From positions 1,467-65,466 of the forward strand of contig JAJYPL010000004.1 in NCBI GenBank assembly GCA_021795355.1: a stretch of DNA of 64,000 nt, given 5' to 3'. Source of the stretch: a bacterium. GTDB taxonomy: Bacteria; SZUA-79; Acidulodesulfobacterales; Acidulodesulfobacteraceae. Position 1 is the first letter of the stretch; the number at the start of each line of letters is the position of its first letter. The translations under genes and the position numbers were made by a program. Below, piece after piece: positions 31,062 to 60,977 of the stretch. The notes under the pieces are model-generated. The model ran no database searches. It had not been told where the DNA came from and worked only from the letters and a program-made list of their open reading frames with translations.

Positions 31062-31069
31062 AAAAATAC

Positions 31070-34182: not shown

Positions 34183-34246
34183 AGAATTAAAAGACTTTTA
34201 TTTATTTATAATTAAAATAATTTATAATTTGCGAGGATAAATTGAT

Positions 34247-36172: not shown

Positions 36173-36219
36173 TAAATAAACTTAATATATTGTAAAAATA
36201 ATTTATAAAATTAAGTCTA

Positions 36220-36250
36220 TCCCCTTCTCTAGATAGAGAAGGGGATTTTA
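36220..36250 (+). terminator. rho-independent terminator after aprA
   Basis: tccccttctct / agagaagggga 11-bp stem with a 4-nt loop, followed by tttta. Confidence 0.6.
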
Positions 36251-36323
36251 ATATGTATAAAGTCTTTATATATTTTTTATATTATATTTAAATAAATAAA
36301 AACTTAGCAATGGAGATTTAAAG

Positions 36324-37622: not shown

Positions 37623-37648
37623 AAGATATTATTTAGGAAGGAGTTAAA

Positions 37649-39955: not shown

Positions 39956-39970
39956 GAAAGGGGGGATATT

Positions 39971-41134: not shown

Positions 41135-41204
41135 TGCTTTAACATGTGTAATGTTAAAGAAATTTTAATAATAATTAAAAATTTAATTTAGGGGGTTTTA
41201 GGTT

Positions 41205-43310
41205 ATGAGTCTATTTGACAAAGCAATGATTTTCGGAATTATTGCGGGTCTTATCGCCGTTATTTACAGTATAGCGGTAACGATATGGGCTATGAAGCAG
41301 GATGAAGGTTCCGACAGAATGAAACAGATAGCTAAGGCTATCCAGGAAGGCGCCACAGCATTTCTTAACAGGCAGTATAGGACGGTAGCGATAGTGGGAG
41401 TAGTTATTTTCGCTTTGCTTCTTATCGGTAAAATATGGGTGCCCCAGTTTGGGCTTTTAACGGCATGCGGATTTGCGTTGGGCGCTTTTTTATCGGCTTT
41501 GGCAGGTTATCTCGGTATGTTTAACGCTGTTAGAGCAAACATAAGAACTGCCCAGATTGCGCATAAAGGCGTAAAACCGGCTTTAAAGTTTGCATTTAAA
41601 GGCGGTTCCGTTACCGGCTTAATGGTTTTAGGCCTCGGCGTCCTCGGAATATCGGTTTTTATGTTAATAGGGTATCACACGAGCGGGCTTGACGGCGTTA
41701 TAAATTCATTAATAGGCTTTGCTTTCGGATGCAGTCTTATTTCCGTTTTTGCAAGGCTTGGCGGCGGTATATACACTAAGGCTGCAGACGTAGGCGCCGA
41801 CCTCGTCGGAAAAGTAGAAGCCGGAATACCGGAAGACGACCCAAGAAACCCTGCGGTTATTGCAGACCAGGTCGGAGACAACGTCGGAGACTGCGCCGGT
41901 ATGGCGGCAGATGTTTTTGAAACTTTTGCTGTTACTATAATAGCATCTATATTGCTGGCATACTCCACCTTTAAAACCGGTTCAAACAGCGGCAGTCTAA
42001 TGCACGGTATACTTTACCCCCTTCTTTTGGGAGGCATAGCAGTTTTTACATCGATTATAGGCGTATTTTTCGTAAGCGCTCCAACTAAAGAAAAAATTAT
42101 GCAGGGTCTTTATAAAGGGCTGTTCGTTACAGGAATAGTTTCGGCTATTGCATATTATTTCTTCACAATGGCTTTTATGAAGCACGTTGGAACCCATTCC
42201 GCAATGGATTATTACTATGCGGCTCTCGTCGGTCTTATTTTAACCGGACTAATTATAGTAATAACCGATTATTTTACATCGACTCAATTTTCACCTGTCA
42301 AATCTATAGCCGAAGCATCGACAACCGGTCACGGAACTAACATTATTGCAGGATTAGCAGTAGGACAGATGTCCACGGCTTTGCCTGTTATAGCGATAGT
42401 TTTCGGCATTTTGATTTCTTATCATTTTGCGGGTTTTTACGGCGTGGCGGTTGCGGCTTCCAGCATGCTCTCTATGGCGGGAATGGTAATAGCGGTCGAT
42501 TCGTTCGGACCTATTACCGATAATGCCGGGGGTATCGCCGAAATGAGCGAACTTCCGGAAGACGTCAGGGAAACCACCGATGCACTCGATGCAGTCGGAA
42601 ACACGACAAAAGCGGTAACGAAAGGATATGCTATAGGCTCCGCAGCTCTTGCGGCTATAGTACTTTTCGGAGAATACTCTAATTTGATCCAAAATGGATA
42701 CGTAAAGGCAGGACTAGAAAAAATATCGTTTTCTATACATCAGCCTATGGTATTAATAGGACTTTTCCTCGGCGCAATGCTTCCTTATATATTTGCTTCC
42801 CTTGCAATGAAATCCGTCGGAAAGGCGGCGGGAGATATAGTCGTCGAAGTCAGGAGGCAGTTTAAAGAAATTCCCGGAATCATGGACGGCACCGGCAAAC
42901 CCGAATACGGAAAATGCGTCGATATAGTCACGAAATCTTCCTTAAGGGAAATGATACTTCCCGCATTTATTCCGATTGCCGGTCCTATTGTTTTCGGTCT
43001 TACTATGGGACCTCAGGTTCTCGGCGGGATATTATTGGGAACTATTATATCGGGTCTTTTCGTCGCAATATCTATGACAAGCGGCGGAGCGGCATGGGAT
43101 AACGCAAAAAAACTTATAGAAAAAGGATTTGAATATAACGGACAGACGTACCGCAAAGGCAGCGAAGCCCACAAAGCCGCAGTTACCGGCGACACCGTCG
43201 GCGATCCTTACAAAGATACCGCCGGTCCGGCAATCAACCCGATGATTAAAGTCGTAAACATCTTTACTATCTTAATCATCCCGATTGTCTTACTGCTTTG
43301 GGCGCATTAA
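41205..43310 (+). CDS. hppA: membrane-bound ion-translocating pyrophosphatase
   Basis: 16-TM protein with GGG(I/L)[23 protein letters not shown]-like ([12 protein letters not shown]) and [11 protein letters not shown] motifs. Confidence 0.95.
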
Positions 43311-50305: not shown

Positions 50306-50395
50306 AAGCATATAAACTGCATTTAATTTTTAGCGTTTTTATAATTTATAATAAGCAGAAAATGTTAAAAGCCGGAGCTCTTTCGATATTTTTGC

Positions 50396-50424
50396 TTGAT
50401 TTTAAAAAATTGTTTTATTATAAT
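50396..50424 (+). promoter_or_regulatory. candidate promoter (duplicated promoter cassette, copy 1) for carbonic anhydrase
   Basis: TTGATT, 17-nt spacer, TATAAT. The ~40-bp block TTTGCTTGATTTTAAAAAATTGTTTTATTATAATCAA is repeated at 51123. Confidence 0.55.
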
Positions 50425-50474: not shown

Positions 50475-51110
50475 ATGGCAAGTTTATTTGACGGAGTTAT
50501 CGATTTCAATAATAACGAGTATAAAAAATACAGCGAGCTATTTAAGAAAATAGCGGACGGCCAGAGTCCGCACACCCTTTTTATCGGGTGTTCCGATTCC
50601 AGAGTGGTTCCTACCCTTATAACTAAATCGCTCCCCGGCGAACTTTTCGTCGTCAGGAATATCGCGAATTTAGTGCCGCCATATAGAAACGTAGCCGAAT
50701 ATCTTGCAACGACTTCGGCCATAGAATATGCAATAAACGTTTTAAAAGTCCGGAATATCGTAGTATGCGGACATTCTAACTGCGGAGGATGCAGGGCTCT
50801 ATATATGTCGGACGAAGATTTAAAACATATTCCGCATACAAAAAAATGGCTTGAGCTTGCGGGCAGCGCAAAAAAAATAGTATCCGGCCATATCAGGGAA
50901 GCGGGCGAAAAAGGCGAAAAATTTACCGAAAAACAGATAGCGGCGCTTACGGAAAGAGAGAACATAAAAGAACAGCTTAAACACCTTGCTTCTTATCCTT
51001 ATATTAAAGAAAATAAAGATATCGATATATACGGATGGCATTACGACATAGAAACCGGAGATGTTTATAACTATTCGTTCGACAGAGATATTTTTGAAAA
51101 AATAAATTAA
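50475..51110 (+). CDS. beta-class carbonic anhydrase
   Basis: Zinc ligand motifs CSDSRV and HSNCGG. Confidence 0.85.
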   Translation: MASLFDGVIDFNNNEYKKYSELFKKIADGQSPHTLFIGCSDSRVVPTLITKSLPGELFVVRNIANLVPPYRNVAEYLATTSAIEYAINVLKVRNIVVCGHSNCGGCRALYMSDEDLKHIPHTKKWLELAGSAKKIVSGHIREAGEKGEKFTEKQIAALTERENIKEQLKHLASYPYIKENKDIDIYGWHYDIETGDVYNYSFDRDIFEKIN

Positions 51111-51126
51111 CGTTTTTATTTTTTGC

Positions 51127-51155
51127 TTGATTTTAAAAAAATGTTTTATTATAAT
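51127..51155 (+). promoter_or_regulatory. candidate promoter (duplicated promoter cassette, copy 2) for icd
   Basis: TTGATT, 17-nt spacer, TATAAT. The core block is near identical to copy 1 (one substitution in the spacer; the match runs from TTTGCTTGA to ATAATCAA). Confidence 0.55.
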
Positions 51156-51227
51156 CAATTTCATCGTATTTTTTAATCCCGTTAAATTAATAATTAATAG
51201 CAGATAATTTTAAAAGGAATATAAATA

Positions 51228-52490
51228 ATGAAAAACGAAAACGTTTTTTTATGGGACGGTAAAATAAACATACCTAATGGCGGCGAATTTATAAAATTAA
51301 AAAGCGACCACAGCATAGAAGTGCCGAATAATCCTATTATACCTTTTATAAGCGGAGACGGCATAGGACCGGAGATTACTCCCGTAATGCTTAACGTAGT
51401 TAATGCCGCAATGGAAAAAGCTTACGGGGACGAAAAAAAAATATACTGGACAGAAGCCGTTGCCGGAGACAAAGCCGAGTCTAACGGCTTGGAAAGAATG
51501 CCGGCGGAAACTCTAGAATTGCTTAAACGCAGCGTGGTTTCCATAAAAGGACCGCTCGGAACTCCGGTCGGCAAACCCGGAAAATCGTTAAATTCTATAT
51601 TAAGGCAGTCTATGGATTTTTATTCGGCGATAAGGCCGGTTTATTATCTCGGCCAGCCTACGCCTATTCCCGATCCCGAAAGAGTGGACGTTACTATTTT
51701 CAGGGAAAATTCCGACGACGTTTATATGGCTATAGAATATATGGCAGGTTCCGAAGGCGCAAAAAAGGTGCGCAATTTCTTCTTGAACGAGATGGGCGTC
51801 AAGGATGCCGCCATTCCGGAAGACGCCGGAATAACTATAAAGCCTATGAGCGAATTTAAAACTAAAAGACACGTCAGGAAGGCTTTCAGGTATGCTATAG
51901 ATAACGGTAAAAAATCTATCGCCGTTGCAGGTAAAGGCAACATAATGAAAGCTACCGAAGGCGCATTTCTAAACTGGGCGTTCGAAGCAGCTAAAGAAGA
52001 TGAGTTTAAAGATAAAATTTCAACGGAAGCAGGCTCTTCTCCTGAAAAAATAAAATTATCGAAAGTTATTACCGATCAGATGCTTATGCAGTTGGTTTTA
52101 AATCCTAACGCATACGATGTTATAATTACACAAAATTTAAACGGCGATTATATTTCCGATCTTGCTTCCGCATTAGTCGGCGGACCCGGTTTCGTACCCA
52201 GCGGCAATATAGGAGACGGTTACGCTCTTTTTGAAAGCACCCACGGCGTAGGTATGGACATTGCAGGCAAGGGGATAGCAAATCCTCTGTCGATAACACT
52301 TTCGGGAGCCATGATGCTTGAATATATAGGTTTTAACGAAGCGGCAAAACTCGTTTACGATGCCGTGAAAAGAACTATTTATCAGGGCAACGGCACGAGG
52401 GATATTTACACCGGTTTTGAAAAATTAGACAAAAAAGCGGTAGAGCTCAGCACCGTAGAGTTCGGAAAACATATAATAAAAGAGATTTAA
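51228..52490 (+). CDS. icd: isocitrate dehydrogenase (prokaryotic homodimeric type)
   Basis: KSLNSILRQ, NLNGDYISD and GTAPD-like region. 420 aa, as in bacterial ICDH. Confidence 0.9.
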   Translation: MKNENVFLWDGKINIPNGGEFIKLKSDHSIEVPNNPIIPFISGDGIGPEITPVMLNVVNAAMEKAYGDEKKIYWTEAVAGDKAESNGLERMPAETLELLKRSVVSIKGPLGTPVGKPGKSLNSILRQSMDFYSAIRPVYYLGQPTPIPDPERVDVTIFRENSDDVYMAIEYMAGSEGAKKVRNFFLNEMGVKDAAIPEDAGITIKPMSEFKTKRHVRKAFRYAIDNGKKSIAVAGKGNIMKATEGAFLNWAFEAAKEDEFKDKISTEAGSSPEKIKLSKVITDQMLMQLVLNPNAYDVIITQNLNGDYISDLASALVGGPGFVPSGNIGDGYALFESTHGVGMDIAGKGIANPLSITLSGAMMLEYIGFNEAAKLVYDAVKRTIYQGNGTRDIYTGFEKLDKKAVELSTVEFGKHIIKEI

Positions 52491-52545
52491 AAATAAAAAA
52501 TAAATAGAATTTAAAATAAGATTTAAAATAAATTCCGGAGGCTAT

Positions 52546-52953
52546 ATGAAATTAACCGTTAAGCAGAAAGAAGATTTTCATTTTGTCGGCAAAAGCGAAT
52601 CCGGCGAAATTAATATAGACGCGGCAGGTTACGTCGGCGGCAAAGGCAGGGGAATAAGGCCGCCCGAACTATTCTTGTATTCTATCGCAGGATGCATGGG
52701 GATACATGCATACGAGGCGCTTCATAAAATGGGCAGACACGTAGAGGACGTAATAGTCGATACCGACAGCGAAAGAAGGGAAGAAAAACCGAAGGTATTT
52801 ACGAAAATAATCTTAAGTTTCACGGTAAAAGGCAAAGGAATAACGGAAGAAGACGTCAAAAAAGCCGTCGAAGAAGCTCTTACAAGTTCCTGCAGCATAG
52901 CTTATTTAGTAAACAAAGCTTGCCCGATAACTTACAGCATTAAACTTGGTTAG
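52546..52953 (+). CDS. OsmC/Ohr-family peroxiredoxin-like protein
   Basis: 135 aa with two conserved-position cysteines (IAGCMG and SSCSIA). Confidence 0.7.
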   Translation: MKLTVKQKEDFHFVGKSESGEINIDAAGYVGGKGRGIRPPELFLYSIAGCMGIHAYEALHKMGRHVEDVIVDTDSERREEKPKVFTKIILSFTVKGKGITEEDVKKAVEEALTSSCSIAYLVNKACPITYSIKLG

Positions 52954-53025
52954 TTAATTAACGATACAATTTAATTAACCGCACCGAAATGAACCGAATT
53001 AATCTGACGGAGGAGTTTTAAAATA

Positions 53026-54444
53026 ATGTTTAATAAAATTTTAGTAGCGAACAGGGGTGAGATAGCCTGCAGAATAATAAGGGCGTCGAAAGAGCTCGGC
53101 ATACCTACTGCGGCTATTTTTTCCGACGTAGAACCGACGGCGCGGCACGTTAAAATGGCCGACGAAGCTTACATGATAGGCGCAAACCCTCTTGATACTT
53201 ATCTTAACTATCAGCTGATAATAGACCTTGCAAAATCTATAGGAGCTGATGCAATTCATCCGGGTTACGGATTTCTTGCCGAAAATGAAGATTTCGCAAA
53301 AGCCGCCGAAGACAATAATATTAATTTTATCGGACCTTCGTCGGAAGTTATAAGGCTTATGGGCGATAAAGCAAGGTCGAAAGAAATTATGAAAAAAGCC
53401 GGCGTTATTACTGTCCCCGGCAGCGACGGCATATTAAAATCGGCTGAAGAAGGGGTAGAAATAGCCGAAAAAATAGGTTATCCGGTTCTTCTTAAAGCTA
53501 CAGCCGGCGGCGGAGGAAGAGGAATAAGACTATGCCGAAATGCAGAAGAAGTAAAGGCCAATTATGAAAACGCTTACGCGGAAGCCCTTAAAGCATTCGG
53601 CAACGGAGAGCTGCTTTTAGAAAAATTTATCGAAAATCCAAAGCATATAGAGTTTCAAATTCTCGGCGATAAATTCGGCAACGTAGTTCATCTTGGAGAA
53701 AGAGACTGTTCCATTCAGAGAAAAAATCAAAAAATGATAGAAATAGCGCCTTCTATGGTTTTAACCGAAGAAAAACGTAAATTTTACGGCGATGCCGCGG
53801 TTAAGGCATGCAGGGATATAGGCTATTACAGCGCAGGCACTATGGAATTCGTTTCCGATTTGTCGGGCAATATATACTTTATTGAAATGAACACGAGGGT
53901 TCAGGTAGAACATCCCGTTACCGAAAGCATTACAGGGTTCGACATAGTGAAAGAACAGATTAAAATCGCCGCAGGAAACAAATTATCGATCAAACAGGAA
54001 GACGTTAAGCTGAACGGATTTGCCATAGAATGCAGAATAAATGCGGAAGACCCGAAACACGATTTCCGTCCCAGCATCGGCACTATAGAACGCTATTATG
54101 TTCCCGGAGGCAACGGTATAAGGATAGAAAGCGCGGCCTCGGTCGGTTTTGAAGTAACTCCTTATTACGATTCGATGATAGGCAAATTAATCTGCTGGGG
54201 TAATACGTTTGAAGAAGCTATCAGCAGAACTTATGAAGCTCTCGAAACTTACGAGATCAAAGGCATTAAAACCACCATACCTATTATAAAAAAGATAATA
54301 AAAAAGGATAATTTTAAAACAGGACTTTTTTCTACGAGTTATTTAAAAGAAAACCCCGATGTTTTTGAATATGAAGTGCAGAGGGATAAAGAAGATTTTG
54401 TAGCTTTCATAAGCGCCGCCTTGTCGGCATATCACGGTTTATAG
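53026..54444 (+). CDS. cfiB: biotin carboxylase subunit (2-oxoglutarate carboxylase small subunit CfiB or pyruvate carboxylase subunit A)
   Basis: KILVANRGEIA, ATP-grasp GGGGRGIR, and EMNTRVQVEHPVTE. Confidence 0.85.
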   Translation: MFNKILVANRGEIACRIIRASKELGIPTAAIFSDVEPTARHVKMADEAYMIGANPLDTYLNYQLIIDLAKSIGADAIHPGYGFLAENEDFAKAAEDNNINFIGPSSEVIRLMGDKARSKEIMKKAGVITVPGSDGILKSAEEGVEIAEKIGYPVLLKATAGGGGRGIRLCRNAEEVKANYENAYAEALKAFGNGELLLEKFIENPKHIEFQILGDKFGNVVHLGERDCSIQRKNQKMIEIAPSMVLTEEKRKFYGDAAVKACRDIGYYSAGTMEFVSDLSGNIYFIEMNTRVQVEHPVTESITGFDIVKEQIKIAAGNKLSIKQEDVKLNGFAIECRINAEDPKHDFRPSIGTIERYYVPGGNGIRIESAASVGFEVTPYYDSMIGKLICWGNTFEEAISRTYEALETYEIKGIKTTIPIIKKIIKKDNFKTGLFSTSYLKENPDVFEYEVQRDKEDFVAFISAALSAYHGL

Positions 54445-54468
54445 TCTATAACGGAGGAATAAAAATAA

Positions 54469-56382
54469 ATGAAAAATATCGAAACTATGTTGCATGAAGG
54501 CTCGATAGAAATTGCGAAGCCTAAAAAGATTTTAATTACCGATTTAACCGCAAGGGACGGACAGCAGTGTAAATTAGCGACGAGGGTTACGACGGACGAT
54601 CTGCTTCCTTTATGCGAAAAAATGGATAAAGCCGGTCTTTACGCTTTCGAGGCATGGGGCGGCGCGACGTACGACGTCTGTTTAAGATATTTAAAGGAAG
54701 ACCCGTGGGAAAGACTCAAAAGAATTAAAGCCGTGATGCCGAATACAAAAATACAGATGCTGTTTAGAGGACAGAGCATAGTAGGCTATAGACCGCGAGC
54801 CGACAAGGTAGTTTACAAGTTTGTCGAAAAAGCCCTTAAGAACGGCATTACCGTTTTCAGGGTGTTCGACTCTTTAAACGATAACCGCAATATCGAAGTC
54901 GCCTGCAAGGTCATCAAGGAACTCGGCGGAGAATGCCATGCGGAAATAAGCTATACCAAAAGCCCTGTTCATACATACGAAAAATGGATGCAATACGCCG
55001 ACGAACTTTTAGAAATCGGACCGGACTGGATTTCCTTTAAAGACGCTACCGGTATCATAATGCCTTTGGATACCTACAACATAATAAAAGGAATGAAAGA
55101 AAAAGTCGGAGATAAAATAAAAATTTTATTTCACAATCACGATATGAGCGGAACCGCCATAATGAATCATATGATGGCGATATTTGCCGGCGTGGATATG
55201 CTTGATACCGTTCTTTCTCCTCTAGCATTCGGCTCTTCCCATCCCGCTACCGAAAGCGTAGTCGCCGCGCTTCAAGGCACGCCTTACGATACGGGCATAG
55301 ATTTAAAAATCTTGGAAGAGGCAGCCGCTTTAACCGGAATTATCAGAAAAAATTATAAAAAATACGAAACCGAATACGGCGGAGTTAACGCGAAAGTTCT
55401 TATCCATAAAATACCCGGCGGAATGATTTCTAATATGACCGCACAGTTAAAAGAGGCTAACGCTATCGACAAAATGGAAGAAGTTCTTAAAGAAACTCCC
55501 AACGTCGAAAGAGACCTCGGTTATCCTCCGCTTTTAACGCCGTCGTCTCAAATAGTCGGCGTTCAGGCCGTCTTAAACGTTATATCCGGCGAAAGATATA
55601 AAATGATAACAAAAGAAGTCAGAGATTATATAGAAGGCAAATACGGTATGCCTCCGGGACCGGTATCGAAAGAGCTTATCGAAAAAATTATGGGCCAAGG
55701 CGGCAAACCGGATTACTCCAAGCGTCCAAGCGACAGCGCAGACGTAAACGAATGGGATAAAGCCGTTAAAGAACTCGGTTCGCTTGCAAAATCCGAAGAG
55801 GATATTCTTCTTTACGTCTTGTTCCCGCTGCAGGCTATGGAATTTTTGAAAGCAAGGGAAAGCGGACAGTTGGAAACGCCGGAAGTTACGCCGGGTACCG
55901 AAGATATGATAGAAACGCGCGCAGGAGTTATAGAAAATACTGCGCCGGTAGAGTTTGACGTTACATATCACGGCGATAAATTTAACGTAAAAATTGAAGG
56001 CGTAACCCCGAATCAGGAAGAAGGCAAACCCAGAAAATATTATGTAAGGGTAGGCGGCAAATTAGAAGAAATACAACTCTTTCCGAAAGTGGAAGCGGTA
56101 GTCGGCGGAAAAGCCGGCGGTTCTAAAACCTCTGCGGGAAGCGCGTCTAGCGGCAAAAGAAGGATTGAAGCCGGAGACGTTTCGGCTCCTATGCCCGGCA
56201 AGGTCGCCAAATTATTAGTAAAAGAAGGCGATAAAGTAACGAAAGGGCAGACCGTTGCCATGGTCGAAGCTATGAAAATGGAAAACGAAATTCATGCGGC
56301 TGCGGACGGCACGGTTAAAGCGGTTTATGTCAAAGTGGGCGATAATATTACGCCGGACGATCCGCTGTTAAATATAGGATAG
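54469..56382 (+). CDS. cfiA: carboxyltransferase + biotinyl carrier subunit (2-oxoglutarate carboxylase large subunit CfiA or pyruvate carboxylase subunit B)
   Basis: HMGL-like TIM barrel (DLTARDGQQ, HNHDMSG) and a C-terminal biotinyl domain, EAMKMENEI. Confidence 0.85.
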   Translation: MKNIETMLHEGSIEIAKPKKILITDLTARDGQQCKLATRVTTDDLLPLCEKMDKAGLYAFEAWGGATYDVCLRYLKEDPWERLKRIKAVMPNTKIQMLFRGQSIVGYRPRADKVVYKFVEKALKNGITVFRVFDSLNDNRNIEVACKVIKELGGECHAEISYTKSPVHTYEKWMQYADELLEIGPDWISFKDATGIIMPLDTYNIIKGMKEKVGDKIKILFHNHDMSGTAIMNHMMAIFAGVDMLDTVLSPLAFGSSHPATESVVAALQGTPYDTGIDLKILEEAAALTGIIRKNYKKYETEYGGVNAKVLIHKIPGGMISNMTAQLKEANAIDKMEEVLKETPNVERDLGYPPLLTPSSQIVGVQAVLNVISGERYKMITKEVRDYIEGKYGMPPGPVSKELIEKIMGQGGKPDYSKRPSDSADVNEWDKAVKELGSLAKSEEDILLYVLFPLQAMEFLKARESGQLETPEVTPGTEDMIETRAGVIENTAPVEFDVTYHGDKFNVKIEGVTPNQEEGKPRKYYVRVGGKLEEIQLFPKVEAVVGGKAGGSKTSAGSASSGKRRIEAGDVSAPMPGKVAKLLVKEGDKVTKGQTVAMVEAMKMENEIHAAADGTVKAVYVKVGDNITPDDPLLNIG

Positions 56383-56421
56383 TTATAAAAACAATATTTA
56401 ATTAATTTATCGAGGTTTTAT

Positions 56422-57663
56422 ATGAAGCTTTACGAATACGAAACTTATGATACCATATTTAAAAAATACGGCGTGCCTACGCCTAAATATTTAGTAGTCC
56501 AGCATCCGGGGCAGAACGTCGAAGATTTTGTGGAACAGTACGGCGAAGTCGTCATAAAATCTCAGGTTCTGGTAGGCAAAAGGGGCAAGGCGGGCGCCGT
56601 AAAGTTTGCAAAAAACGGCGACGAAGCAAACGAACATGTTCAGGCATTAATGGAAGCCGAGGTTTACGGAGAAAAACCCGTAAGCGTAATTCTTCAGGAA
56701 AAAGCATCTATATTAAAGGAATTATACGTAAGTTTTACATATTCTTCAAAGCCGAGGCGTCCGGTCTTCGTAGTTTCTCTCGAAGGCGGAATGGACGTCG
56801 AGGCGCAGGATCCTTCTAAAATATTTACTTTCGAGATAAATCCGCTCGAAGGACTGTTTCCTTATAAAGTCAGGGAATATCTTATTGAAATAGGGCTTGA
56901 AGACAGGCCTGTATTAAGGCAGATGTCGGAAGTAATAGCCAACATGTATAAAGGATTTTGGAATTCGGAAGCAAGGCTGATAGAGGTTAATCCTTTAATA
57001 ATAGCAGGGGACAAGGCAAATCCCGATAAGCAGAAAGTTTTTGCCATAGATGCCGTAACCATGATAGACGACGACGCCAGAATAGCGCCTTCAAAAATAT
57101 ACACCGCAAGAGGCGCAATGGGAAGGCCTCTGACGGAAAGAGAAAAAGCCGCCCACTTAATAGACAGGGATGACCACAGGGGAAAAGCAGGTTCTTACGT
57201 TGAATTAGACGGAAATATAGGAATGATGACTTTCGGCGGCGGCGGTTCTACTATTACGGCGGAAACCGTTTTCGCGCTGGGAATGAAACCCGCTAATTTG
57301 ACGGATATAGGCGGAAATCCTCCCGCAGAAAAAATGAATAAAATTTCAAAAATTATACTTTCCAAGCCGGGTTTAAAGGCCGTTCTAGTATGCGGCGGCA
57401 CTGCAAGCAATACAAGGATAGACGTTACCATAGGCGAAGGATTGGTATCGGCGATAGAAGAAATGAAAAAAGAAGGAACGTTTCCTGAGGGTATGATATG
57501 GATGGTAAGAAGAAGCGGTCCCGAATATCAGAAAGGTTTAAAAATGCTTCACGAATGTTTTCAGAGAAACAATATCGAAGGCGTTATATACGATTCGGAA
57601 CTTCCGCTTACCGAAGCTCCTCAAAAATTATACGAAATTTTAAAATCTAAAAATTTATTATAA
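56422..57663 (+). CDS. ccsA: citryl-CoA synthetase large subunit (SucC-like ATP-grasp)
   Basis: MKLYEYE...KSQVLVGKRGKAGAVKF ATP-grasp N-terminus. 413 aa. Clustered with a SucD-like gene and a short citrate-synthase-like gene. Confidence 0.75.
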   Translation: MKLYEYETYDTIFKKYGVPTPKYLVVQHPGQNVEDFVEQYGEVVIKSQVLVGKRGKAGAVKFAKNGDEANEHVQALMEAEVYGEKPVSVILQEKASILKELYVSFTYSSKPRRPVFVVSLEGGMDVEAQDPSKIFTFEINPLEGLFPYKVREYLIEIGLEDRPVLRQMSEVIANMYKGFWNSEARLIEVNPLIIAGDKANPDKQKVFAIDAVTMIDDDARIAPSKIYTARGAMGRPLTEREKAAHLIDRDDHRGKAGSYVELDGNIGMMTFGGGGSTITAETVFALGMKPANLTDIGGNPPAEKMNKISKIILSKPGLKAVLVCGGTASNTRIDVTIGEGLVSAIEEMKKEGTFPEGMIWMVRRSGPEYQKGLKMLHECFQRNNIEGVIYDSELPLTEAPQKLYEILKSKNLL

Positions 57664-57676
57664 ATTTTAAAAAATA

Positions 57677-57798
57677 GAAATTATGCACTTGACAAAGCGA
57701 GATTGGTTAGCTTCGCTGGACTTCGTCCGCTATCGCTCGCAATCTCGCCGTTATTGTATGACAGATACCAAATATTGCTTTGTTAAGTGCATAATTCC
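57677..57798. mobile_element. 122-bp MITE-like element, copy 2 (inverse orientation relative to copy 1)
   Basis: TIRs GAAATTATGCACTTGACAAAG (57677-57697) and CTTTGTTAAGTGCATAATTCC (57778-57798). The internal sequence matches the reverse complement of 31091-31172. Confidence 0.55.
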
Positions 57799-57847
57799 GT
57801 AAAAAATTAATTTAGTTGATTAAAATTATTTATTGGAGATTATTTAT

Positions 57848-58846
57848 ATGAAAGGCACTAAGTTTTTAAACGACGGAACCGGAGTCATAGTAATAGGCAT
57901 TACCGGAAGAGAGGCTTCCCAGGTCGTTATCGAATCGGAAAAATTATTTCCAGGCATAGTAAAATGCGGAGTAACGCCCGGCAAAGGCGGAACCGTGCTT
58001 ACAAACGACTGTCCGGTACCGGTTTTCGATACCGTAAAAGAAGCTCTTAAGGTTAAAGAATTAAAGCAGTCCGTAAATACCGGACTTGTTTACGTTCCGC
58101 CGACGTCCGTTTTGGATGCGGTTTATGAACTTATCGACAACGGCATTAAACTTATATATATAATTACAGAACACGTGCCTATCAGGGATTCTATAATAAT
58201 ATACGAATTTGCGAAAGAAAAAGACGTTACGATAGTAGGAGGAACTTCTCTCGGATGCTATGCCCCTTCTGTAGGCAGGATAGGAGCTATCGGCGGAAAA
58301 GACCCGAGCATCGCATTTAAGGACGGCTCTATAGTGGTGCTTTCGAAAAGCGGCGGACTTACCGTTACGACTTCCGAGATGTTTAAAAGAAGAGGCTTCG
58401 GAATTTATATGGCTCTTGCCGTAGGTGGCGACGTTATTGCATGTACTACGTTTGCCGATGTCCTTCCTGAACTGGAAAAAGACAAAAACGTTCAGGCATG
58501 CGTTATAATGGGCGAACCCGGCGGCGTTTACGAAGAGAAGGTTGCCGAACTCGTAGATAAAGGCGGATATACTAAGCCGTTGGCGGTGTTCGTAGCAGGC
58601 GTTTTTCAGGAGATGATGCCCGAAGGCGTTTCATTCGGCCATGCGGGAGCCATAGTCGAAAGAGGTATGGGCAAAGCCACGAATAAAATAAAGATACTCG
58701 AAGAAGTCGGCAAAAAAACAGGAACTATTAAAGTCGCCAAATTTTATCACGAATTAGTCAACTCGATTATTTCGCTCGGCGTCAAAAGAGACTTTGAAGA
58801 CGGTTCTTCCGACGACGTTAAGCCGCTTTACAGCACTTTAAAATAA
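57848..58846 (+). CDS. ccsB: citryl-CoA synthetase small subunit (SucD-like CoA-binding)
   Basis: GITGREAS CoA-binding fold, SKSGGLT, and the phosphohistidine loop SFGHAGAIV. Start at the ATG 9 nt after GGAG; the track ORF begins at 57833. Confidence 0.75.
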   Translation: MKGTKFLNDGTGVIVIGITGREASQVVIESEKLFPGIVKCGVTPGKGGTVLTNDCPVPVFDTVKEALKVKELKQSVNTGLVYVPPTSVLDAVYELIDNGIKLIYIITEHVPIRDSIIIYEFAKEKDVTIVGGTSLGCYAPSVGRIGAIGGKDPSIAFKDGSIVVLSKSGGLTVTTSEMFKRRGFGIYMALAVGGDVIACTTFADVLPELEKDKNVQACVIMGEPGGVYEEKVAELVDKGGYTKPLAVFVAGVFQEMMPEGVSFGHAGAIVERGMGKATNKIKILEEVGKKTGTIKVAKFYHELVNSIISLGVKRDFEDGSSDDVKPLYSTLK

Positions 58847-58871
58847 TTTTTTATCGAATTTATAATTTCAC

Positions 58872-58910
58872 TCCCTTAGTTTCTTCAATGTTTTTGTCGA
58901 AGCTAAGGGA
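58872..58910 (+). terminator. imperfect intercistronic hairpin between ccsB and ccl
   Basis: tcccttag / ctaaggga outer stem plus cttc/gaag inner stem; followed by aatttaatttt. Confidence 0.3.
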
Positions 58911-58989
58911 AATTTAATTTTGAAATCAAGGCGAATTAACTTAAATTTAAATATTAAAAATAATTTTTAAAATAAGGAGCGATGATTTT

Positions 58990-59793
58990 ATGTCCGAAAC
59001 CGTTTCTCAAAAAGAATGGAGAACCGCAATTACGTCCAATCAGGACGGCAAAATTCTTATAAGAGGCTACAATCTCGATAGTTTAATAGGGAATAAATCT
59101 TATGCGGAAGTCTGTTTTCTGCTATTAAAAGGCGAACTTCCAAACCAAAACGAAGCTAAAATGCTGGACGCAATTTTTGTTTCCTGCATAGATGCAGGCA
59201 TAGCCGCTCCTTCGTCCGTTGCCGCAAGGACCGTATTTTCCGGCGGAAATTCGCTTAATGCCGCCGTAGCCGCCGGAGTTTTGACTTTAGGCGATGCTCA
59301 CGGAGGCGCAATAGAAAAAGCCGCCAAAATGTTTCAGGATTATCTAAAAGGCAAGGACGGACTTAAGGAATCCGAAATAAAAGATATGGCGGCAAACATA
59401 GTTGACGATGCGTTGAAAAATAAAAAAAGGCTTGCAGGCTACGGGCATAAACTTCATACCGTCGATCCGAGAACTAAGAGGCTTTTAGAAGTCGCCGAAG
59501 ATTTAAATTTCGGAGGAGATTTTATTAAGTTAGCCGTTTATATCGCAGACGAATTTAAAGTTAAAAAACCCGAACAGAAACTTCCGCTTAACGTGGACGG
59601 CTGTATTGCCGCGATAATTTCCGATATGGGCTTTGATTACAGGCTCGGCAAGGGTTTCTTTATTATCGCCCGTTCCGCCGGTCTCGTCGGCCAGGTTTTC
59701 GAGGAATGGATGAGGGAAAAACCGTTCCGCAGATTAGCCGCCAATCTCCACGAATACGACGGAGTGCCGGAGCGCGAACTTAAAAAGCAGTAA
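58990..59793 (+). CDS. ccl: citryl-CoA lyase (short citrate-synthase-family protein)
   Basis: 267 aa, corresponding to the citrate synthase catalytic C-terminal region (GDAHGGA, GYGHKLH). Directly downstream of ccsAB. Confidence 0.75.
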   Translation: MSETVSQKEWRTAITSNQDGKILIRGYNLDSLIGNKSYAEVCFLLLKGELPNQNEAKMLDAIFVSCIDAGIAAPSSVAARTVFSGGNSLNAAVAAGVLTLGDAHGGAIEKAAKMFQDYLKGKDGLKESEIKDMAANIVDDALKNKKRLAGYGHKLHTVDPRTKRLLEVAEDLNFGGDFIKLAVYIADEFKVKKPEQKLPLNVDGCIAAIISDMGFDYRLGKGFFIIARSAGLVGQVFEEWMREKPFRRLAANLHEYDGVPERELKKQ

Positions 59794-59798
59794 AATAG

Positions 59799-59885
59799 AA
59801 AAAGGTGTCAGATTTTATTTTCCGTATAAAAAAAGTTAGTTAATATATATAGCTGATAGCGGAAAATAAAATCTGACACCTTTTT
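59799..59885. repeat. AAAGGTGTCAGAT...TTTTCCG inverted-repeat element, copy D (perfect arms)
   Basis: AAAAAGGTGTCAGATTTTATTTTCCG (59799-59824) and its exact reverse complement (59860-59885), with a 35-nt loop. Confidence 0.8.
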
Positions 59886-59889
59886 CTAA

Positions 59890-59918
59890 TTGAAATATAC
59901 CTATAAACGTAGTATAAT
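59890..59918 (+). promoter_or_regulatory. candidate promoter for glpX
   Basis: TTGAAA (59890-59895), 17-nt spacer, TATAAT (59913-59918). A ~100-nt leader follows. Confidence 0.5.
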
Positions 59919-60020
59919 TCATCAAAGTTACGTGAGGCAAAGAGACCTCTAAGAAGACGTTGCTTAATTTTAAAACATTACATAACTCTAATCGGTAAAT
60001 ATAATAAGGGAGGAGCAATA

Positions 60021-60977
60021 ATGGACGATAAAGCGTTGACTATCGAATTTGTCAGGGTTACGGAACATGCCGCAATATCCGTTGCAAGATTTATAGGCAG
60101 AGGCGACGAAAAAGCGGCGGACAGGGCTGCCGTAGAATCCATGAGGGACTCTCTTAATTATATCGATATAGACGGCACTATCGTTATCGGCGAAGGCGAA
60201 AGAGACGAAGCTCCCATGCTTTACATAGGGGAAAAAGTAGGGAACGGAAAAGGGCAGAAGGTAGATATAGCCGTCGATCCTTTAGAAGGAACTACTTTGG
60301 CGGCTACCAGCGCGCCAAACGCTATCGCCGTAATGGCTATAGGCGACCATGGAAACTTTCTTCATGCGCCGGATACCTATATGCAGAAAATAGCCGTCGG
60401 ACCTAAAGCAAAAGGCGCAATAGACATAAATCTTTCACCGACTGAAAATCTTCACAGGATAGCGGATGCCATGAACAGATATGTTGAAGACCTTACAGTC
60501 ATAATCCTTAACCGCGAAAGACATAAAGAATTAATAGACGAAGTTAGAAAAGCCGGAGCAAGAATCCGCCTAATTCAGGACGGCGACGTTGCCGGAGCTA
60601 TCGCTACCGCTAAAGAAGACTCCGGAATAGACGTTCTTATGGGCACCGGAGGCGCGCCTGAAGGAGTTCTCGGCGCGGCGGCGCTAAGATGCGTCGGGGG
60701 AGATATGCAGGGCAGGCTTGCATTCAGGAATGAAGGCGAAAAAGAGCGCGCACTTAAAATGGGGATAAAAGATTTAAATAAAGTTTACGGCATACAGGAA
60801 CTTGCCGCCGGAGACGTGATATTTGTCGCAACCGGAGTGACTAACGGCGATTATTTGAACGGCGTGGAATTTTTTCACGGCGGCGCAAAAACGTATTCGG
60901 TAGTCATGAGGTCTAAAACCGGAACCATTAGGTATATAGAAGCCAACCACTATTTCAATTACAAAGAAATAAAATAA
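60021..60977 (+). CDS. glpX: class II fructose-1,6-bisphosphatase (GlpX type, possibly FBP/SBPase)
   Basis: VTEHAAI...GRGDEKAADRAAV N-terminus, VDPLEGT and GTGGAPEGV motifs. Confidence 0.9.
   Translation: MDDKALTIEFVRVTEHAAISVARFIGRGDEKAADRAAVESMRDSLNYIDIDGTIVIGEGERDEAPMLYIGEKVGNGKGQKVDIAVDPLEGTTLAATSAPNAIAVMAIGDHGNFLHAPDTYMQKIAVGPKAKGAIDINLSPTENLHRIADAMNRYVEDLTVIILNRERHKELIDEVRKAGARIRLIQDGDVAGAIATAKEDSGIDVLMGTGGAPEGVLGAAALRCVGGDMQGRLAFRNEGEKERALKMGIKDLNKVYGIQELAAGDVIFVATGVTNGDYLNGVEFFHGGAKTYSVVMRSKTGTIRYIEANHYFNYKEIK

What the first reader, a model, noticed from the sequence alone, without database searches (positions are those of the whole stretch)
50475..60977. Aquificae/Leptospirillum-type reductive TCA gene set clustered with carbonic anhydrase and GlpX
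The gene order is beta-CA, icd, OsmC-like, biotin carboxylase (472 aa), carboxyltransferase-BCCP (637 aa), SucC-like (413 aa), SucD-like (332 aa), a short citrate-synthase-like gene (267 aa) and glpX. The sizes and order fit two systems described for Hydrogenobacter: 2-oxoglutarate carboxylase CfiBA plus ICDH (two-step reductive carboxylation), and citryl-CoA synthetase CcsAB plus citryl-CoA lyase Ccl (two-step citrate cleavage). Together with the sulfur island, this suggests a sulfur-dependent chemolithoautotroph. CfiAB cannot be distinguished from a two-subunit pyruvate carboxylase by eye.
Basis: partly seen in the sequence, partly recalled or inferred. Interest (0 to 1): 0.65.

Follow-up and report, generated by a model that had tools for sequence, protein, structure and literature searches.

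The report
Two-step reductive TCA gene cluster
This acid-mine bacterium (Candidatus Acidulodesulfobacterium) keeps the ATP-driven "two-step" carbon-fixation enzymes known from hot-spring Aquificota side by side in one gene cluster, a known kind of pathway that here sits in a moderate-temperature lineage where part of it had been labelled as pyruvate carboxylase.

Summary
Nine + strand genes lie at 50475-60977: beta-carbonic anhydrase, icd, an OsmC-like gene, a biotin carboxylase, a carboxyltransferase-BCCP, ccsA, ccsB, ccl and glpX.

CcsA, CcsB and Ccl score 3-4 times higher against the solved Hydrogenobacter thermophilus citryl-CoA synthetase and lyase than against any succinyl-CoA synthetase or citrate synthase. 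The carboxylase pair is best read as 2-oxoglutarate carboxylase (CfiBA), not pyruvate carboxylase.

The window comes from Ca. Acidulodesulfobacterium, a predicted mesophile from acid mine drainage. rTCA with ccsAB is already published for this lineage. The CfiBA pair appears to have been counted there as a second pycAB.

New points:
- Related species carry one of two cassettes behind the same fully conserved promoter: [NAD-type icd + osmC + cfiBA, sometimes with CA] or [canonical NADP icd alone].
- The OsmC/YhfA-like gene is an almost constant neighbour of OGC-type carboxylase genes in several lineages.
- The CA gene carries a duplicated copy of the icd promoter.

Verdict: a new member of a known kind, of moderate interest. 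No enzyme activity was tested.

The parts
50392..50424 (+). Copy 1 of the conserved promoter-like element (TTGATT-17-TATAAT), upstream of the CA gene
   Evidence: One mismatch to copy 2; none expected by chance. Sigma-70-like, 10 of 12 positions.
50475..51110 (+). Beta-class carbonic anhydrase (211 aa)
   Evidence: Pfam Pro_CA, E 6e-46. Zn-site motifs CSDSR (C39, D41, R43) and HSNCG (H100, C103) are present. Detected in only five version-A loci, three of them species-representative genomes.
51123..51155 (+). Copy 2 of the promoter-like element, upstream of icd; likely promoter of the icd-osmC-cfiBA-ccsA unit
   Evidence: Its 29-nt core is identical in 20 related loci of both cassette types.
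51228..52490 (+). Aquificota-type, NAD-type isocitrate dehydrogenase (putative oxalosuccinate reductase), 420 aa
   Evidence: 70% identical to H. thermophilus TK-6 ICDH and 74-75% to Hydrogenobaculum and Sulfurihydrogenibium ICDH. Below the NADP-IDH equivalog cut-off (431 < 567). Asp-Ile-...-Ala at E. coli positions 344, 345 and 351.
52546..52953 (+). OsmC/YhfA-like protein (135 aa), conserved partner of the carboxylase genes
   Evidence: Pfam OsmC. Closest solved relatives: E. coli YhfA 1ml8, Thermotoga OsmC 1vla, Aquifex Aq_1549. 57-74% identical in seven lineages, with Cys50 and Cys116 invariant. Next to BC or CT in 60 of 62 metagenomic loci.
53026..54444 (+). cfiB: biotin carboxylase (small) subunit of 2-oxoglutarate carboxylase, 472 aa
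   Evidence: Best solved match is the H. thermophilus OGC small subunit 7kct (773 bits). K236, R291, E295 and R337 are present at the 7KC7 numbering. 72% identical to the Hydrogenobacter sp. T-2 cfiB.
54469..56382 (+). cfiA: carboxyltransferase + BCCP (large) subunit of 2-oxoglutarate carboxylase, 637 aa
   Evidence: 70% identical to proteins named OGC large subunit in Aquificaceae. In the NJ tree it falls with that clade and apart from PycB, OadA and 5S. AMKM biotinylation motif at 601; metal and carbamyl-Lys motifs RDGQQ29, KDA191 and HNH222.
56422..57663 (+). [quoted passage not shown]
   Evidence: 547 bits to 6hxq_B against 147 bits for the best SCS-beta. Pfam ATP-grasp_2 plus the ACL citrate-binding domain.
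57676..57802 (+). MITE-like palindromic insertion between ccsA and ccsB
   Evidence: Hairpin of -45.5 kcal/mol, z -6.4. A related copy lies at 31067-31193. In relatives the ccsA-ccsB gap is only 20-32 nt.
57848..58846 (+). [quoted passage not shown]
   Evidence: 428 bits to 6hxq_A against 180 bits for the best SCS-alpha. Phosphohistidine motif GHAGA at 264.
58990..59793 (+). ccl: citryl-CoA lyase, 267 aa
   Evidence: 241 bits to 6hxp_A against 74 bits for the best citrate synthase. NCBIfam citryl-CoA lyase NF004869, 309 > 212. Citrate-synthase catalytic motifs HGGA104, GYGH150 and NVD201.
59796..59888 (+). Perfect 29-bp inverted repeat after ccl (repeat element; possible terminator)
   Evidence: -47.7 kcal/mol, z -14. 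Related copies at 11460, 43455 and 62063. High copy number in a mine-tailings metagenome.
59890..59918 (+). Promoter-like site (TTGAAA-17-TATAAT) ahead of glpX
   Evidence: 11 of 12 consensus positions, the best in the region. A consensus match only.
60021..60977 (+). glpX: class II fructose-1,6-bisphosphatase, 318 aa
   Evidence: TIGR00330, 391 > 259. Kept downstream of ccl in both cassette versions.

Best explanation
The locus encodes the two ATP-dependent steps that define the 'symmetric', two-step reductive TCA cycle first described in Hydrogenobacter thermophilus.

1. **Carboxylation of 2-oxoglutarate.** CfiB plus CfiA (2-oxoglutarate carboxylase) use ATP and bicarbonate to make oxalosuccinate. 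The adjacent NAD-type ICDH reduces oxalosuccinate to isocitrate.
2. **Citrate cleavage.** After aconitase, which is encoded elsewhere, CcsAB converts citrate, ATP and CoA to citryl-CoA. Ccl then splits citryl-CoA into acetyl-CoA and oxaloacetate.
3. **Bicarbonate supply.** The beta-carbonic anhydrase sits behind a duplicated copy of the same promoter. It would convert CO2, the dominant inorganic carbon species in an acid habitat, into the bicarbonate the biotin carboxylase needs.
4. **Outflow of fixed carbon.** GlpX downstream and ApgM upstream carry fixed carbon into gluconeogenesis.

icd, osmC, cfiB, cfiA and ccsA are separated by only 24-72 nt and probably form one transcript from the conserved promoter.

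*Shown:* gene identities, closest relatives, catalytic motifs, synteny, and the co-variation of cfiBA with the ICDH type.

*Inferred:* substrate specificity, direction of flux, co-transcription, and the roles of CA and the OsmC-like protein.
For: **Citrate cleavage.** CcsA, CcsB and Ccl match the solved H. thermophilus CCS and CCL and pass the NCBIfam citryl-CoA lyase cut-off. The catalytic motifs are intact.

**BC subunit.** The top solved hit is the H. thermophilus OGC small subunit. Its four diagnostic residues sit at identical numbering.

**CT-BCCP subunit.**
- It is 70% identical to Aquificaceae proteins named OGC large subunit.
- In the NJ tree it falls within the Aquificota CfiA clade. 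That clade and its sister clade are separated from the solved PycB, OadA and 5S subunits by a branch of 0.30.
- 27 positions are fixed in that clade and differ from all three solved pyruvate/oxaloacetate enzymes. One is KDM to KDA at the carbamyl-lysine motif.

**ICDH.** It is 70% identical to TK-6 ICDH, with NAD-type residues.

**Synteny.** The icd-osmC-cfiB-cfiA order recurs in a Hydrogenothermaceae MAG, in L093 and in about a dozen metagenomic loci. osmC-cfiB-cfiA recurs in Hydrogenobacter sp. T-2.

**Co-variation.** Among species-representative genomes of the phylum:
- 10 carry cfiBA. In the 9 where the upstream gene is visible, it is this ICDH type.
- 14 lack cfiBA. All 14 carry a canonical NADP-ICDH at the same site (TIGR00183, 650-668 > 567 in the two tested; the other 12 are 90-100% identical to these).
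- None is mixed.

**Rest of the cycle.** Published gene tables for the order list korAB, porAB and acnA in all four MAGs, korC and korD being listed too, and list two pycAB pairs in three of the four. A separate, genuine pyruvate carboxylase therefore probably exists. The same paper reports ccsAB expression.
Against: - No enzyme activity is known for any protein of this lineage.
- NCBIfam's best model for the CT subunit is 'pyruvate carboxylase subunit B' (a domain-type model, 805 bits). No OGC-specific model was among the hits listed.
- The BC subunit discriminates poorly: 773 bits to OGC 7kct against 736 bits to Aquifex 1ulz, which was deposited as pyruvate carboxylase.
- The tree is neighbour-joining only. 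It lacks the Hydrogenobacter and Acidulodesulfobacterium PycB paralogues, which I could not retrieve.
- OGOR, POR and fumarate reductase are not in the window.
- RNA support found here is a few low-depth metatranscriptome contigs.
- Hairpin or MITE-like insertions between ccsA, ccsB, ccl and glpX may break up transcription in this strain.
Confidence: 0.8

Rival explanations
1. The 472-aa and 637-aa pair is a two-subunit pyruvate carboxylase (PycAB) that makes oxaloacetate from pyruvate. The ICDH carries out ordinary one-step reductive carboxylation. Only citrate cleavage is then two-step, as reported for Leptospirillum.
For: - The best NCBIfam hit is 'pyruvate carboxylase subunit B', and it lies above its cut-off.
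- Public annotations of the closest relatives read 'pyruvate/oxaloacetate carboxyltransferase'.
- Tan 2019 counts these genes as pycAB.
- The BC subunit scores almost as well against Aquifex 1ulz, deposited as pyruvate carboxylase.
Against: - The CT subunit groups with the Aquificota CfiA clade, not with solved PycB.
- No second Hydrogenobacter CT-BCCP appears among hits above about 55% identity.
- The pair sits inside an icd-osmC-BC-CT unit shared with Aquificota.
- The pair is present or absent together with the Aquificota-type ICDH.
- Genomes of the order usually hold a second pycAB pair.
Confidence: 0.12
2. The cluster serves an oxidative or branched TCA cycle in a heterotroph. Ccl and CcsAB would run towards citrate and the ICDH would oxidise isocitrate. 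The organism would not fix CO2 through this locus.
For: - The CCL and ICDH reactions are reversible in principle.
- Citrate-synthase genes lie near the carboxylase genes in L092. In L086 the short (259-aa) Citrate_synt gene about 10 kb downstream matches Ccl at 48%.
- The published metabolic reconstructions also list fermentation and carbohydrate-active enzymes.
Against: - An ATP- and bicarbonate-consuming carboxylase and an ATP-consuming citryl-CoA synthetase only make sense in the reductive direction.
- A carbonic anhydrase shares the promoter.
- The flanking genes are gluconeogenic: apgM and glpX.
- Genomes of the order encode OGOR and POR.
Confidence: 0.05
3. The CT-BCCP/BC/OsmC-like trio acts on a 2-oxoacid other than 2-oxoglutarate, or runs as a decarboxylase. 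Its position next to icd would then be coincidental.
For: - Sister clades of the CT subunit (475-aa CT-only and 750-aa forms) occur in varied contexts. In one, a 2-hydroxyacid dehydrogenase replaces icd.
- Some public names read '2-oxoglutarate decarboxylase'.
Against: - The window protein lies inside the Aquificota CfiA clade, not the sister clades.
- A BC subunit and a BCCP domain are present and no membrane Oad-beta gene is adjacent, so the enzyme is a carboxylase.
- icd adjacency recurs in independent lineages.
Confidence: 0.03

Closest known systems
Hydrogenobacter thermophilus TK-6 two-step ('symmetric') rTCA enzymes: CcsAB, Ccl, CfiAB (OGC) and non-decarboxylating ICDH (Aoshima and Igarashi 2004-2008; structures 6HXQ, 6HXP, 7KCT)
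   Same: All six proteins have their closest characterised relatives there:
- about 60-63% identity for CcsA and CcsB, measured against Hydrogenobacter/Aquificaceae proteins
- 48% for Ccl, measured against the Hydrogenobacter sp. T-2 gene
- about 70% for ICDH against TK-6, and for CfiA and CfiB against Hydrogenobacter sp. T-2

Subunit sizes, catalytic motifs and the NAD-type ICDH residues also match.
   Different: - In Aquificaceae the genes are scattered. ccsA lies alone or with ccsB, and no cfi, icd or ccl was found within 10 kb. Here all lie in one 10.5-kb cluster together with CA and glpX.
- The host is a predicted mesophile from acid mine drainage (predicted optimum 38-47 C, PMC12506266), not a thermophile.
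- The OGC part is dispensable among close relatives.
Leptospirillum rTCA cluster (ccsAB-acnA-ccl-frdAB-sucCD; Levican 2008, PMC2607301)
   Same: An acid-mine autotroph that uses CCS and CCL instead of ATP-citrate lyase. ccsAB and ccl are clustered (L083). Version B of the Acidulodesulfobacterium locus, with a canonical NADP-ICDH and no cfiBA, is of this kind.
   Different: Leptospirillum is reported to have an E. coli-like ICDH, and no OGC was reported there. The window (version A) adds OGC, the Aquificota-type ICDH, the OsmC-like gene and CA. CcsA identity is 54-58%.
Published description of Ca. Acidulodesulfobacterales / Acidulodesulfobacteriota (Tan 2019, PMC6776010; 2025, PMC12506266)
   Same: Same lineage. 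CcsA is 98% identical to that of a MAG named Ca. Acidulodesulfobacterium. rTCA with ccsAB and ccl, their expression, and the dsr/sat/apr/qmo sulfur genes are already reported.
   Different: - Neither main text mentions a 2-oxoglutarate carboxylase.
- The pair is counted as a second pycAB in Table S4.
- The cluster layout, the two cassette versions, the shared promoter and the OsmC-like partner are not described there.
Two-subunit pyruvate carboxylase (Methylobacillus flagellatus PycAB, 5KS8)
   Same: Same domain architecture: BC subunit plus CT-BCCP subunit. Same metal-binding and biotin motifs.
   Different: - 563 bits to PycB, against 982 bits to the protein named OGC large subunit.
- Separated by a long branch in the tree.
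- Active-site-proximal residues differ, for example KDM to KDA and GYWS to GLYA.

Membership tests
Citryl-CoA synthetase (CcsAB) | Two subunits homologous to SucC and SucD but closer to characterised CCS than to any succinyl-CoA synthetase | tested here: met
   547 against 147 bits (large subunit) and 428 against 180 bits (small subunit) versus the H. thermophilus CCS 6hxq.
Citryl-CoA synthetase (CcsAB) | Citrate-binding domain in the large subunit; phosphohistidine loop in the small subunit; not fused to the lyase module as in ATP-citrate lyase | tested here: met
   Pfam Citrate_bind PF16114. GHAGA at residue 264. Separate 332-aa and 267-aa ORFs.
Citryl-CoA synthetase (CcsAB) | ATP- and CoA-dependent formation of citryl-CoA from citrate | not testable with these tools
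   Needs an enzyme assay.
Citryl-CoA lyase (Ccl) | Protein of about 260 aa that corresponds to the C-terminal part of citrate synthase, closer to characterised CCL than to citrate synthases | tested here: met
   241 bits to 6hxp_A against 74 bits. NCBIfam NF004869, 309 > 212.
Citryl-CoA lyase (Ccl) | Citrate-synthase-type catalytic His, His and Asp retained | tested here: met
   HGGA104, GYGH150 and NVD201. Their equivalence to the citrate-synthase catalytic residues rests on general knowledge.
2-oxoglutarate carboxylase (CfiAB) | Large subunit (CT+BCCP) orthologous to Aquificaceae CfiA rather than to PycB or OadA | tested here: met
   70% identity to proteins named OGC large subunit. The NJ tree places it in that clade, outside solved PycB, OadA and 5S. 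Caveat: Aquificaceae PycB is not in the tree.
2-oxoglutarate carboxylase (CfiAB) | Small subunit is a biotin carboxylase with K236, R291, E295 and R337 (7KC7 numbering, the criterion used in PMC13147460) | tested here: met
   All four are present at the same numbers. The best solved hit is 7kct. This feature does not separate OGC from PYC.
2-oxoglutarate carboxylase (CfiAB) | Functional pairing with a Hydrogenobacter-type ICDH | tested here: met
   The genes are adjacent. The unit is shared with Aquificota. Co-variation is perfect across the 23 species-representative genomes in which both genes could be scored (9 with cfiBA, 14 without).
2-oxoglutarate carboxylase (CfiAB) | ATP- and bicarbonate-dependent carboxylation of 2-oxoglutarate to oxalosuccinate | not testable with these tools
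   Needs an enzyme assay.
Non-decarboxylating ICDH (oxalosuccinate reductase) of H. thermophilus | Orthology to TK-6 ICDH and NAD(H)-type cofactor residues | tested here: met
   70% identity to P0304. Asp-Ile at E. coli positions 344 and 345 and Ala at 351. It scores higher against the engineered NAD-specific E. coli mutant 1iso than against wild type (368 against 354 bits).
Non-decarboxylating ICDH (oxalosuccinate reductase) of H. thermophilus | Reduces oxalosuccinate but does not itself carboxylate 2-oxoglutarate efficiently | not testable with these tools
   A kinetic property. I know of no sequence signature for it.
Complete reductive TCA cycle | 2-oxoglutarate:ferredoxin and pyruvate:ferredoxin oxidoreductases and fumarate reductase in the same genome | tested here: inconclusive
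   None lies in the 64-kb window. korAB and porAB are listed for all four published MAGs of the order (korC and korD are listed too), and the paper's Fig. 3 shows the cycle. The genome of this particular MAG could not be scanned.
Two-subunit pyruvate carboxylase (PycAB) | CT subunit groups with characterised PycB | tested here: not met
   Solved M. flagellatus PycB lies outside, across a branch of 0.30. 563 against 982 bits.
Beta-carbonic anhydrase | Cys-His-Cys zinc ligands and the Asp-Arg dyad | tested here: met
   C39, D41, R43, H100 and C103. Pfam Pro_CA, full length.
Class II fructose-1,6-bisphosphatase (GlpX) | Passes the equivalog model | tested here: met
   TIGR00330, 391 > 259.

The most novel reading that the evidence does not exclude
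Two linked readings remain open.

1. **A third component of OGC systems.** The small OsmC/YhfA-like protein may be a dedicated, so far unrecognised component of 2-oxoglutarate-carboxylase-type systems. It could be a thiol-based protector or redox switch for the biotin enzyme or its labile oxoacid chemistry. It travels with the BC and CT genes in every lineage examined.
2. **An exchangeable cassette.** The unit [NAD-ICDH + OsmC-like + CfiBA (+CA)] may be a module that switches a cell between a one-step, CO2-using conversion of 2-oxoglutarate to isocitrate and an ATP-driven, bicarbonate-using two-step conversion. Both forms occur among closely related mesophilic acid-mine species. OGC would then be an adaptation to inorganic-carbon supply or thermodynamic drive rather than to high temperature.
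Probability: 0.4. Interest if true: 0.65.

Novelty: new member of a known kind. Interest (0 to 1): 0.45.

Why it matters
**OGC outside thermophiles.** A 2026 survey of rTCA genomes concluded that 2-oxoglutarate carboxylase is restricted to thermophilic and hyperthermophilic Aquificota, and suggested a link to temperature (PMC13147460). If the assignment here is right, a predicted mesophile from acid mine drainage carries the complete two-step pathway. That weakens the temperature explanation. It favours explanations based on bicarbonate versus CO2 supply, or on the extra thermodynamic push from ATP.

**A natural comparison.** Sister species have or lack the OGC module behind an identical promoter. 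This allows a direct comparison of the cost and benefit of the extra ATP step.

**Annotation.** The icd-osmC-BC-CT unit is a practical genomic signature for separating OGC from two-subunit pyruvate carboxylase. Current pipelines confuse the two.

**A new candidate player.** The conserved OsmC-like gene is testable in Hydrogenobacter.

**Engineering.** A compact, mesophilic version of these enzymes may also interest groups building condensed reverse-TCA modules.

Tried and rejected
- **RNA support.** The three metatranscriptome runs listed gave only a few low-depth contigs. One spans the cfiA-ccsA junction in a related strain. This is too thin to establish an operon.
- **Aoshima and Igarashi 2008 (PMC2258884).** The paper is not held. 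The non-decarboxylating property of TK-6 ICDH is therefore cited through secondary papers.
- **PycB paralogue.** I could not retrieve the true PycB of Acidulodesulfobacterium or Hydrogenobacter for the tree. The one PycB-like hit, P0093, sits on 1.9-kb contigs with no context.
- **Recent foreign import of cassette A.** I considered this and set it aside. G+C of the cassette genes (0.41-0.45) matches the neighbouring genes. Cassette divergence tracks flank divergence.
- **CT-only 475-aa relatives.** I checked whether they share the context. Some follow the OsmC-like gene directly, but a Zixibacteria example does not.
- **Rfam and tRNA scans.** These found only one tRNA-Ser, far from the cluster.
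- **Tree method.** No maximum-likelihood software was available. All trees are neighbour-joining with 100 bootstraps.

Full report
**1. Observation**

SucD-like is 332 aa from the ATG at 57848; a TTG five codons upstream gives 337 aa. Pfam and NCBIfam assign them as follows:
- beta-carbonic anhydrase
- isocitrate/isopropylmalate dehydrogenase
- OsmC family
- biotin carboxylase
- HMGL-like carboxyltransferase + PYC_OADA + biotinyl domain
- SucC-like ATP-grasp with the ATP-citrate-lyase citrate-binding domain
- SucD-like CoA ligase
- the C-terminal part of citrate synthase
- class II fructose-1,6-bisphosphatase

The same cluster occurs in four independent public assemblies that carry an identical CcsA protein.

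**2. Source organism**

A scan of one genome per species found the cluster, with CcsA 82-98% identical, in 27 loci from 26 genomes of MAGs. Some are named Candidatus Acidulodesulfobacterium or 'Deltaproteobacteria bacterium' (SZUA-79). DNA runs that hold the sequence come from mine tailings, mine drainage and sediment metagenomes.

The lineage has been proposed as the phylum Ca. Acidulodesulfobacteriota. It is predicted to be mesophilic, with predicted growth optima of 38-47 C (PMC12506266).

The rest of the window carries dsrAB, a DsrL-like gene, dsrC, dsrMK-like genes, DsrE-like genes, sat, aprBA, qmoABC-like genes and a proton pyrophosphatase.

**3. Citrate cleavage**

- CcsA scores 547 bits against the solved H. 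thermophilus citryl-CoA synthetase large subunit. The best succinyl-CoA synthetase beta scores 147 bits and Chlorobium ACL-beta 127 bits.
- CcsB scores 428 bits against the CCS small subunit, and 180 bits against the best SCS-alpha. It keeps the phosphohistidine loop GHAGA.
- The 267-aa protein scores 241 bits against H. thermophilus citryl-CoA lyase, and 74 bits against the best citrate synthase. It exceeds the NCBIfam citryl-CoA lyase cut-off and keeps the His/His/Asp motifs.
- A Leptospirillum locus carries ccsAB-like genes (58-65% identical) and also genuine sucCD (28-34% identical). The two families are therefore well separated.

**4. CfiAB or PycAB?**

*BC subunit.* The best solved match is the H. 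thermophilus 2-oxoglutarate carboxylase small subunit (773 bits). An Aquifex protein deposited as pyruvate carboxylase is close behind (736 bits). BC alone therefore does not decide the question.

*CT-BCCP subunit.* This is more informative.
- It is 70% identical to Aquificaceae proteins that NCBI names '2-oxoglutarate carboxylase large subunit'.
- It scores 982 bits against these and 563 bits against the solved two-subunit PycB of Methylobacillus.
- In a neighbour-joining tree of the CT domain it falls with the Aquificota CfiA clade.
- Solved PycB, OadA and the 5S transcarboxylase lie beyond a branch of 0.30 substitutions per site.
- No second Hydrogenobacter protein appears among the hits above about 55% identity. 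The Hydrogenobacter PycB paralogue must therefore be more distant.
- 27 positions are fixed in the CfiA clade and differ from all three solved pyruvate/oxaloacetate enzymes. They include KDM to KDA at the carbamyl-lysine motif and GYWS to GLYA.
- From memory, the equivalent 5S residues (Met186, and the neighbourhood of Ala59) are active-site residues. This structural reading is an inference.

**5. Evidence from context**

*The adjacent ICDH is not an ordinary NADP enzyme.*
- It fails the TIGR00183 cut-off (431 < 567).
- It is 70% identical to H. thermophilus TK-6 ICDH and 74-75% identical to Hydrogenobaculum and Sulfurihydrogenibium ICDH.
- It has Asp-Ile and Ala at E. coli positions 344, 345 and 351.
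- It also matches the engineered NAD-specific mutant 1ISO at positions 201 and 332, and scores higher against that mutant than against wild type.
- TK-6 ICDH is the enzyme reported to act as an oxalosuccinate reductase together with OGC (cited in PMC13147460, PMC5441870 and PMC2607301).

*The gene order is shared.*
- icd-osmC-BC-CT recurs in a Hydrogenothermaceae MAG, in L093 and in about a dozen metagenomic loci.
- osmC-BC-CT recurs in Hydrogenobacter sp. T-2.

**6. Two versions of the locus**

Within the phylum the site between apgM and ccsA comes in two forms.

| | Version A | Version B |
|---|---|---|
| Species genomes | the window plus 10 | 14 |
| ICDH | Aquificota-type, NAD-type residues | 45-47% identical to the window ICDH; passes the NADP-IDH equivalog model (650-668 > 567); Lys-Tyr at positions 344 and 345 |
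| Other genes | OsmC-like gene, cfiB, cfiA; CA in some | none of OsmC, cfiBA or CA |

- No mixed locus was seen.
- On a tree of CcsA+CcsB+Ccl+GlpX the two versions are interleaved. A lies in the deepest clade and again in the crown clade, B lies in between and again inside the crown. At least two or three switches are needed.
- Divergence of each cassette tracks divergence of the flanks. Cassette G+C matches that of its neighbours. Neither cassette therefore looks like a recent import.
- CfiA homologues in the 5.8-billion-protein collection match only the A lineages.
- The published gene table gives pycA/pycB counts of 2, 2, 1 and 2 for the four original MAGs.

The simplest reading is that one pair is the true pyruvate carboxylase and the other is the cluster's CfiBA, which some species lack. 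This co-variation is the strongest argument that the pair works with this ICDH, and hence that it is OGC.

**7. Regulation and layout**

- A 29-nt sequence, TTGATT-17-TATAAT, is identical upstream of icd in 20 loci of both versions. The cassette boundaries therefore lie between this promoter and ccsA.
- In the window the element occurs twice: before icd (51123-51155) and, with one mismatch, before the CA gene (50392-50424). None is expected by chance.
- CA is detectable in only five version-A loci, three of them species genomes. It appears to have been inserted together with a copy of the promoter.
- This fits a role in supplying bicarbonate to the biotin carboxylase in an acid, CO2-dominated habitat. 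That role is inferred.
- icd, osmC, cfiB, cfiA and ccsA are 24-72 nt apart.
- In this strain the gaps ccsA-ccsB, ccsB-ccl and ccl-glpX hold strong hairpins. Two are copies of dispersed palindromic repeats. Relatives have short gaps at these sites.
- A near-consensus promoter-like site precedes glpX.

**8. The OsmC-like gene**

- The 135-aa protein belongs to the YhfA-like branch of the OsmC family. Its closest solved relatives are 1ml8, 1vla and Aquifex Aq_1549.
- It is 57-74% identical across seven lineages, as conserved as the enzymes themselves. Cys50 and Cys116 are invariant.
- It sits before BC-CT in most lineages. In one it sits between CT and BC.
- In another lineage it lies in an rTCA supercluster: OFOR-aconitase-2-hydroxyacid dehydrogenase-OsmC-BC-CT-mdh-fumAB-frd.
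- A reverse test used the metagenome collection, searched with an alignment of this subfamily. Of 62 loci with at least 600 nt downstream, 60 have the BC gene (51) or the CT gene (9) next, on the same strand. The median gap is 19 nt.
- No paper in the searchable library contains both 'OsmC' and '2-oxoglutarate carboxylase'.
- Its function is unknown. A thiol-based protective or regulatory role is a guess.

**9. What is known and what is new**

*Already published.*
- rTCA with ccsAB and ccl in this order, and the expression of those genes (Tan 2019). A 2022 preprint lists the order among taxa for which a complete rTCA cycle is theoretically possible.
- The two-step variant itself is textbook for Aquificaceae.

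*Not found in the literature searched.*
- Recognition of OGC in this lineage. The genes are counted as pycAB. A 2026 survey states that OGC is restricted to thermophilic Aquificota and links it to temperature.
- The single-locus organisation with CA and glpX.
- The A/B cassette polymorphism behind one promoter.
- The OsmC-like partner.

In the Aquificaceae genomes sampled, ccsA lies alone or with ccsB only.

**10. Verdict**

The locus is a new member, in a new and mesophilic phylum, of the known Hydrogenobacter-type two-step rTCA system. Confidence in the functional assignment is about 0.8.

The main gaps are:
- There is no biochemistry for any of these proteins.
- The trees are neighbour-joining and lack the PycB paralogues.
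- OGOR and POR are known only from published gene tables for sister genomes.
- RNA evidence is thin.

Interest is moderate. It would rise if the OsmC-like protein proves to be a functional part of OGC, or if the cassette choice tracks inorganic-carbon supply.

Noticed in passing
window 51228-56382; loci L009-L012, L014, L015, L017-L022, L027, L029: At the same site behind the same promoter, related species carry one of two cassettes: [Aquificota-type NAD-ICDH + OsmC-like + cfiBA] or a single canonical NADP-ICDH (45-47% identical). The two versions are interleaved on the tree of the flanking genes.
   Followed up: yes
window 52546-52953; L085 8117-8527; L086 8142-8558; L091 6142-6555; L092 10033-10443; L093 1479-1895; L094-L165: A YhfA/OsmC-like 135-aa protein with two invariant cysteines lies next to OGC-type BC or CT genes in 60 of 62 metagenomic loci and in six further lineages. 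No paper in the searched library links OsmC to this carboxylase.
   Followed up: partly
window 50392-50424 and 51123-51155: The conserved icd promoter-like element (TTGATT-17-TATAAT) is duplicated in front of the carbonic anhydrase gene. That gene is present only in some version-A relatives, which suggests it was inserted together with a promoter copy.
   Followed up: yes
window 57676-57802 (related copy at 31067-31193); 58872-58910; 59796-59888 (related copies near 11460, 43455, 62063): Strong hairpins or MITE-like palindromic repeats fill the ccsA-ccsB, ccsB-ccl and ccl-glpX gaps in this strain, where relatives have short gaps. The 29-bp perfect inverted repeat is high-copy in a mine-tailings metagenome.
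   Followed up: partly
L085 3497-11908 (Hydrogenothermaceae MAG); L102: ATP-citrate lyase genes lie back to back with icd-osmC-cfiB-cfiA. This is a hybrid of one-step citrate cleavage and two-step 2-oxoglutarate carboxylation, in a family that the literature describes as using the one-step cycle.
   Followed up: partly
L091 186-15584: An rTCA supercluster in an unidentified lineage: OFOR alpha/beta, aconitase, a 322-aa 2-hydroxyacid dehydrogenase, OsmC-like, BC, a 755-aa CT-BCCP, malate dehydrogenase, fumarase and fumarate reductase. The 2-hydroxyacid dehydrogenase sits where icd sits elsewhere.
   Followed up: no
L103, L106, L108-L110, L115, L121, L145; L090: A clade of 475-aa CT-only proteins, with no BCCP domain and no adjacent BC gene, shares the CfiA-type active-site substitutions. 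It often follows the OsmC-like gene directly, but a Zixibacteria example has no OsmC neighbour.
   Followed up: no
window 23689-43310: A sulfur-metabolism island: dsrAB, a 570-aa DsrL/GltD-like flavoprotein, dsrC, dsrMK-like genes, DsrE-like genes, sat, aprBA, three Qmo/Hdr-like genes and a membrane H+-pyrophosphatase. It matches the mixed reductive/oxidative Dsr set published for this phylum.
   Followed up: partly
window 1427-4378: A YeeE/YedE-type sulfur-transport protein and a rhodanese-domain protein lie near the start of the window.
   Followed up: no
window 4774-5301, 7467-8171, 8859-9920 (-), 10095-11420: Four sizeable ORFs (175-441 aa) have no Pfam match at E <= 1e-5.
   Followed up: no
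PMC6776010, supplementary Table S4: The published gene table counts pycA/pycB as 2, 2, 1 and 2 in MAGs AP1-AP4. This probably reflects the cfiBA pair being labelled as pyruvate carboxylase, and one MAG being a version-B genome.
   Followed up: partly
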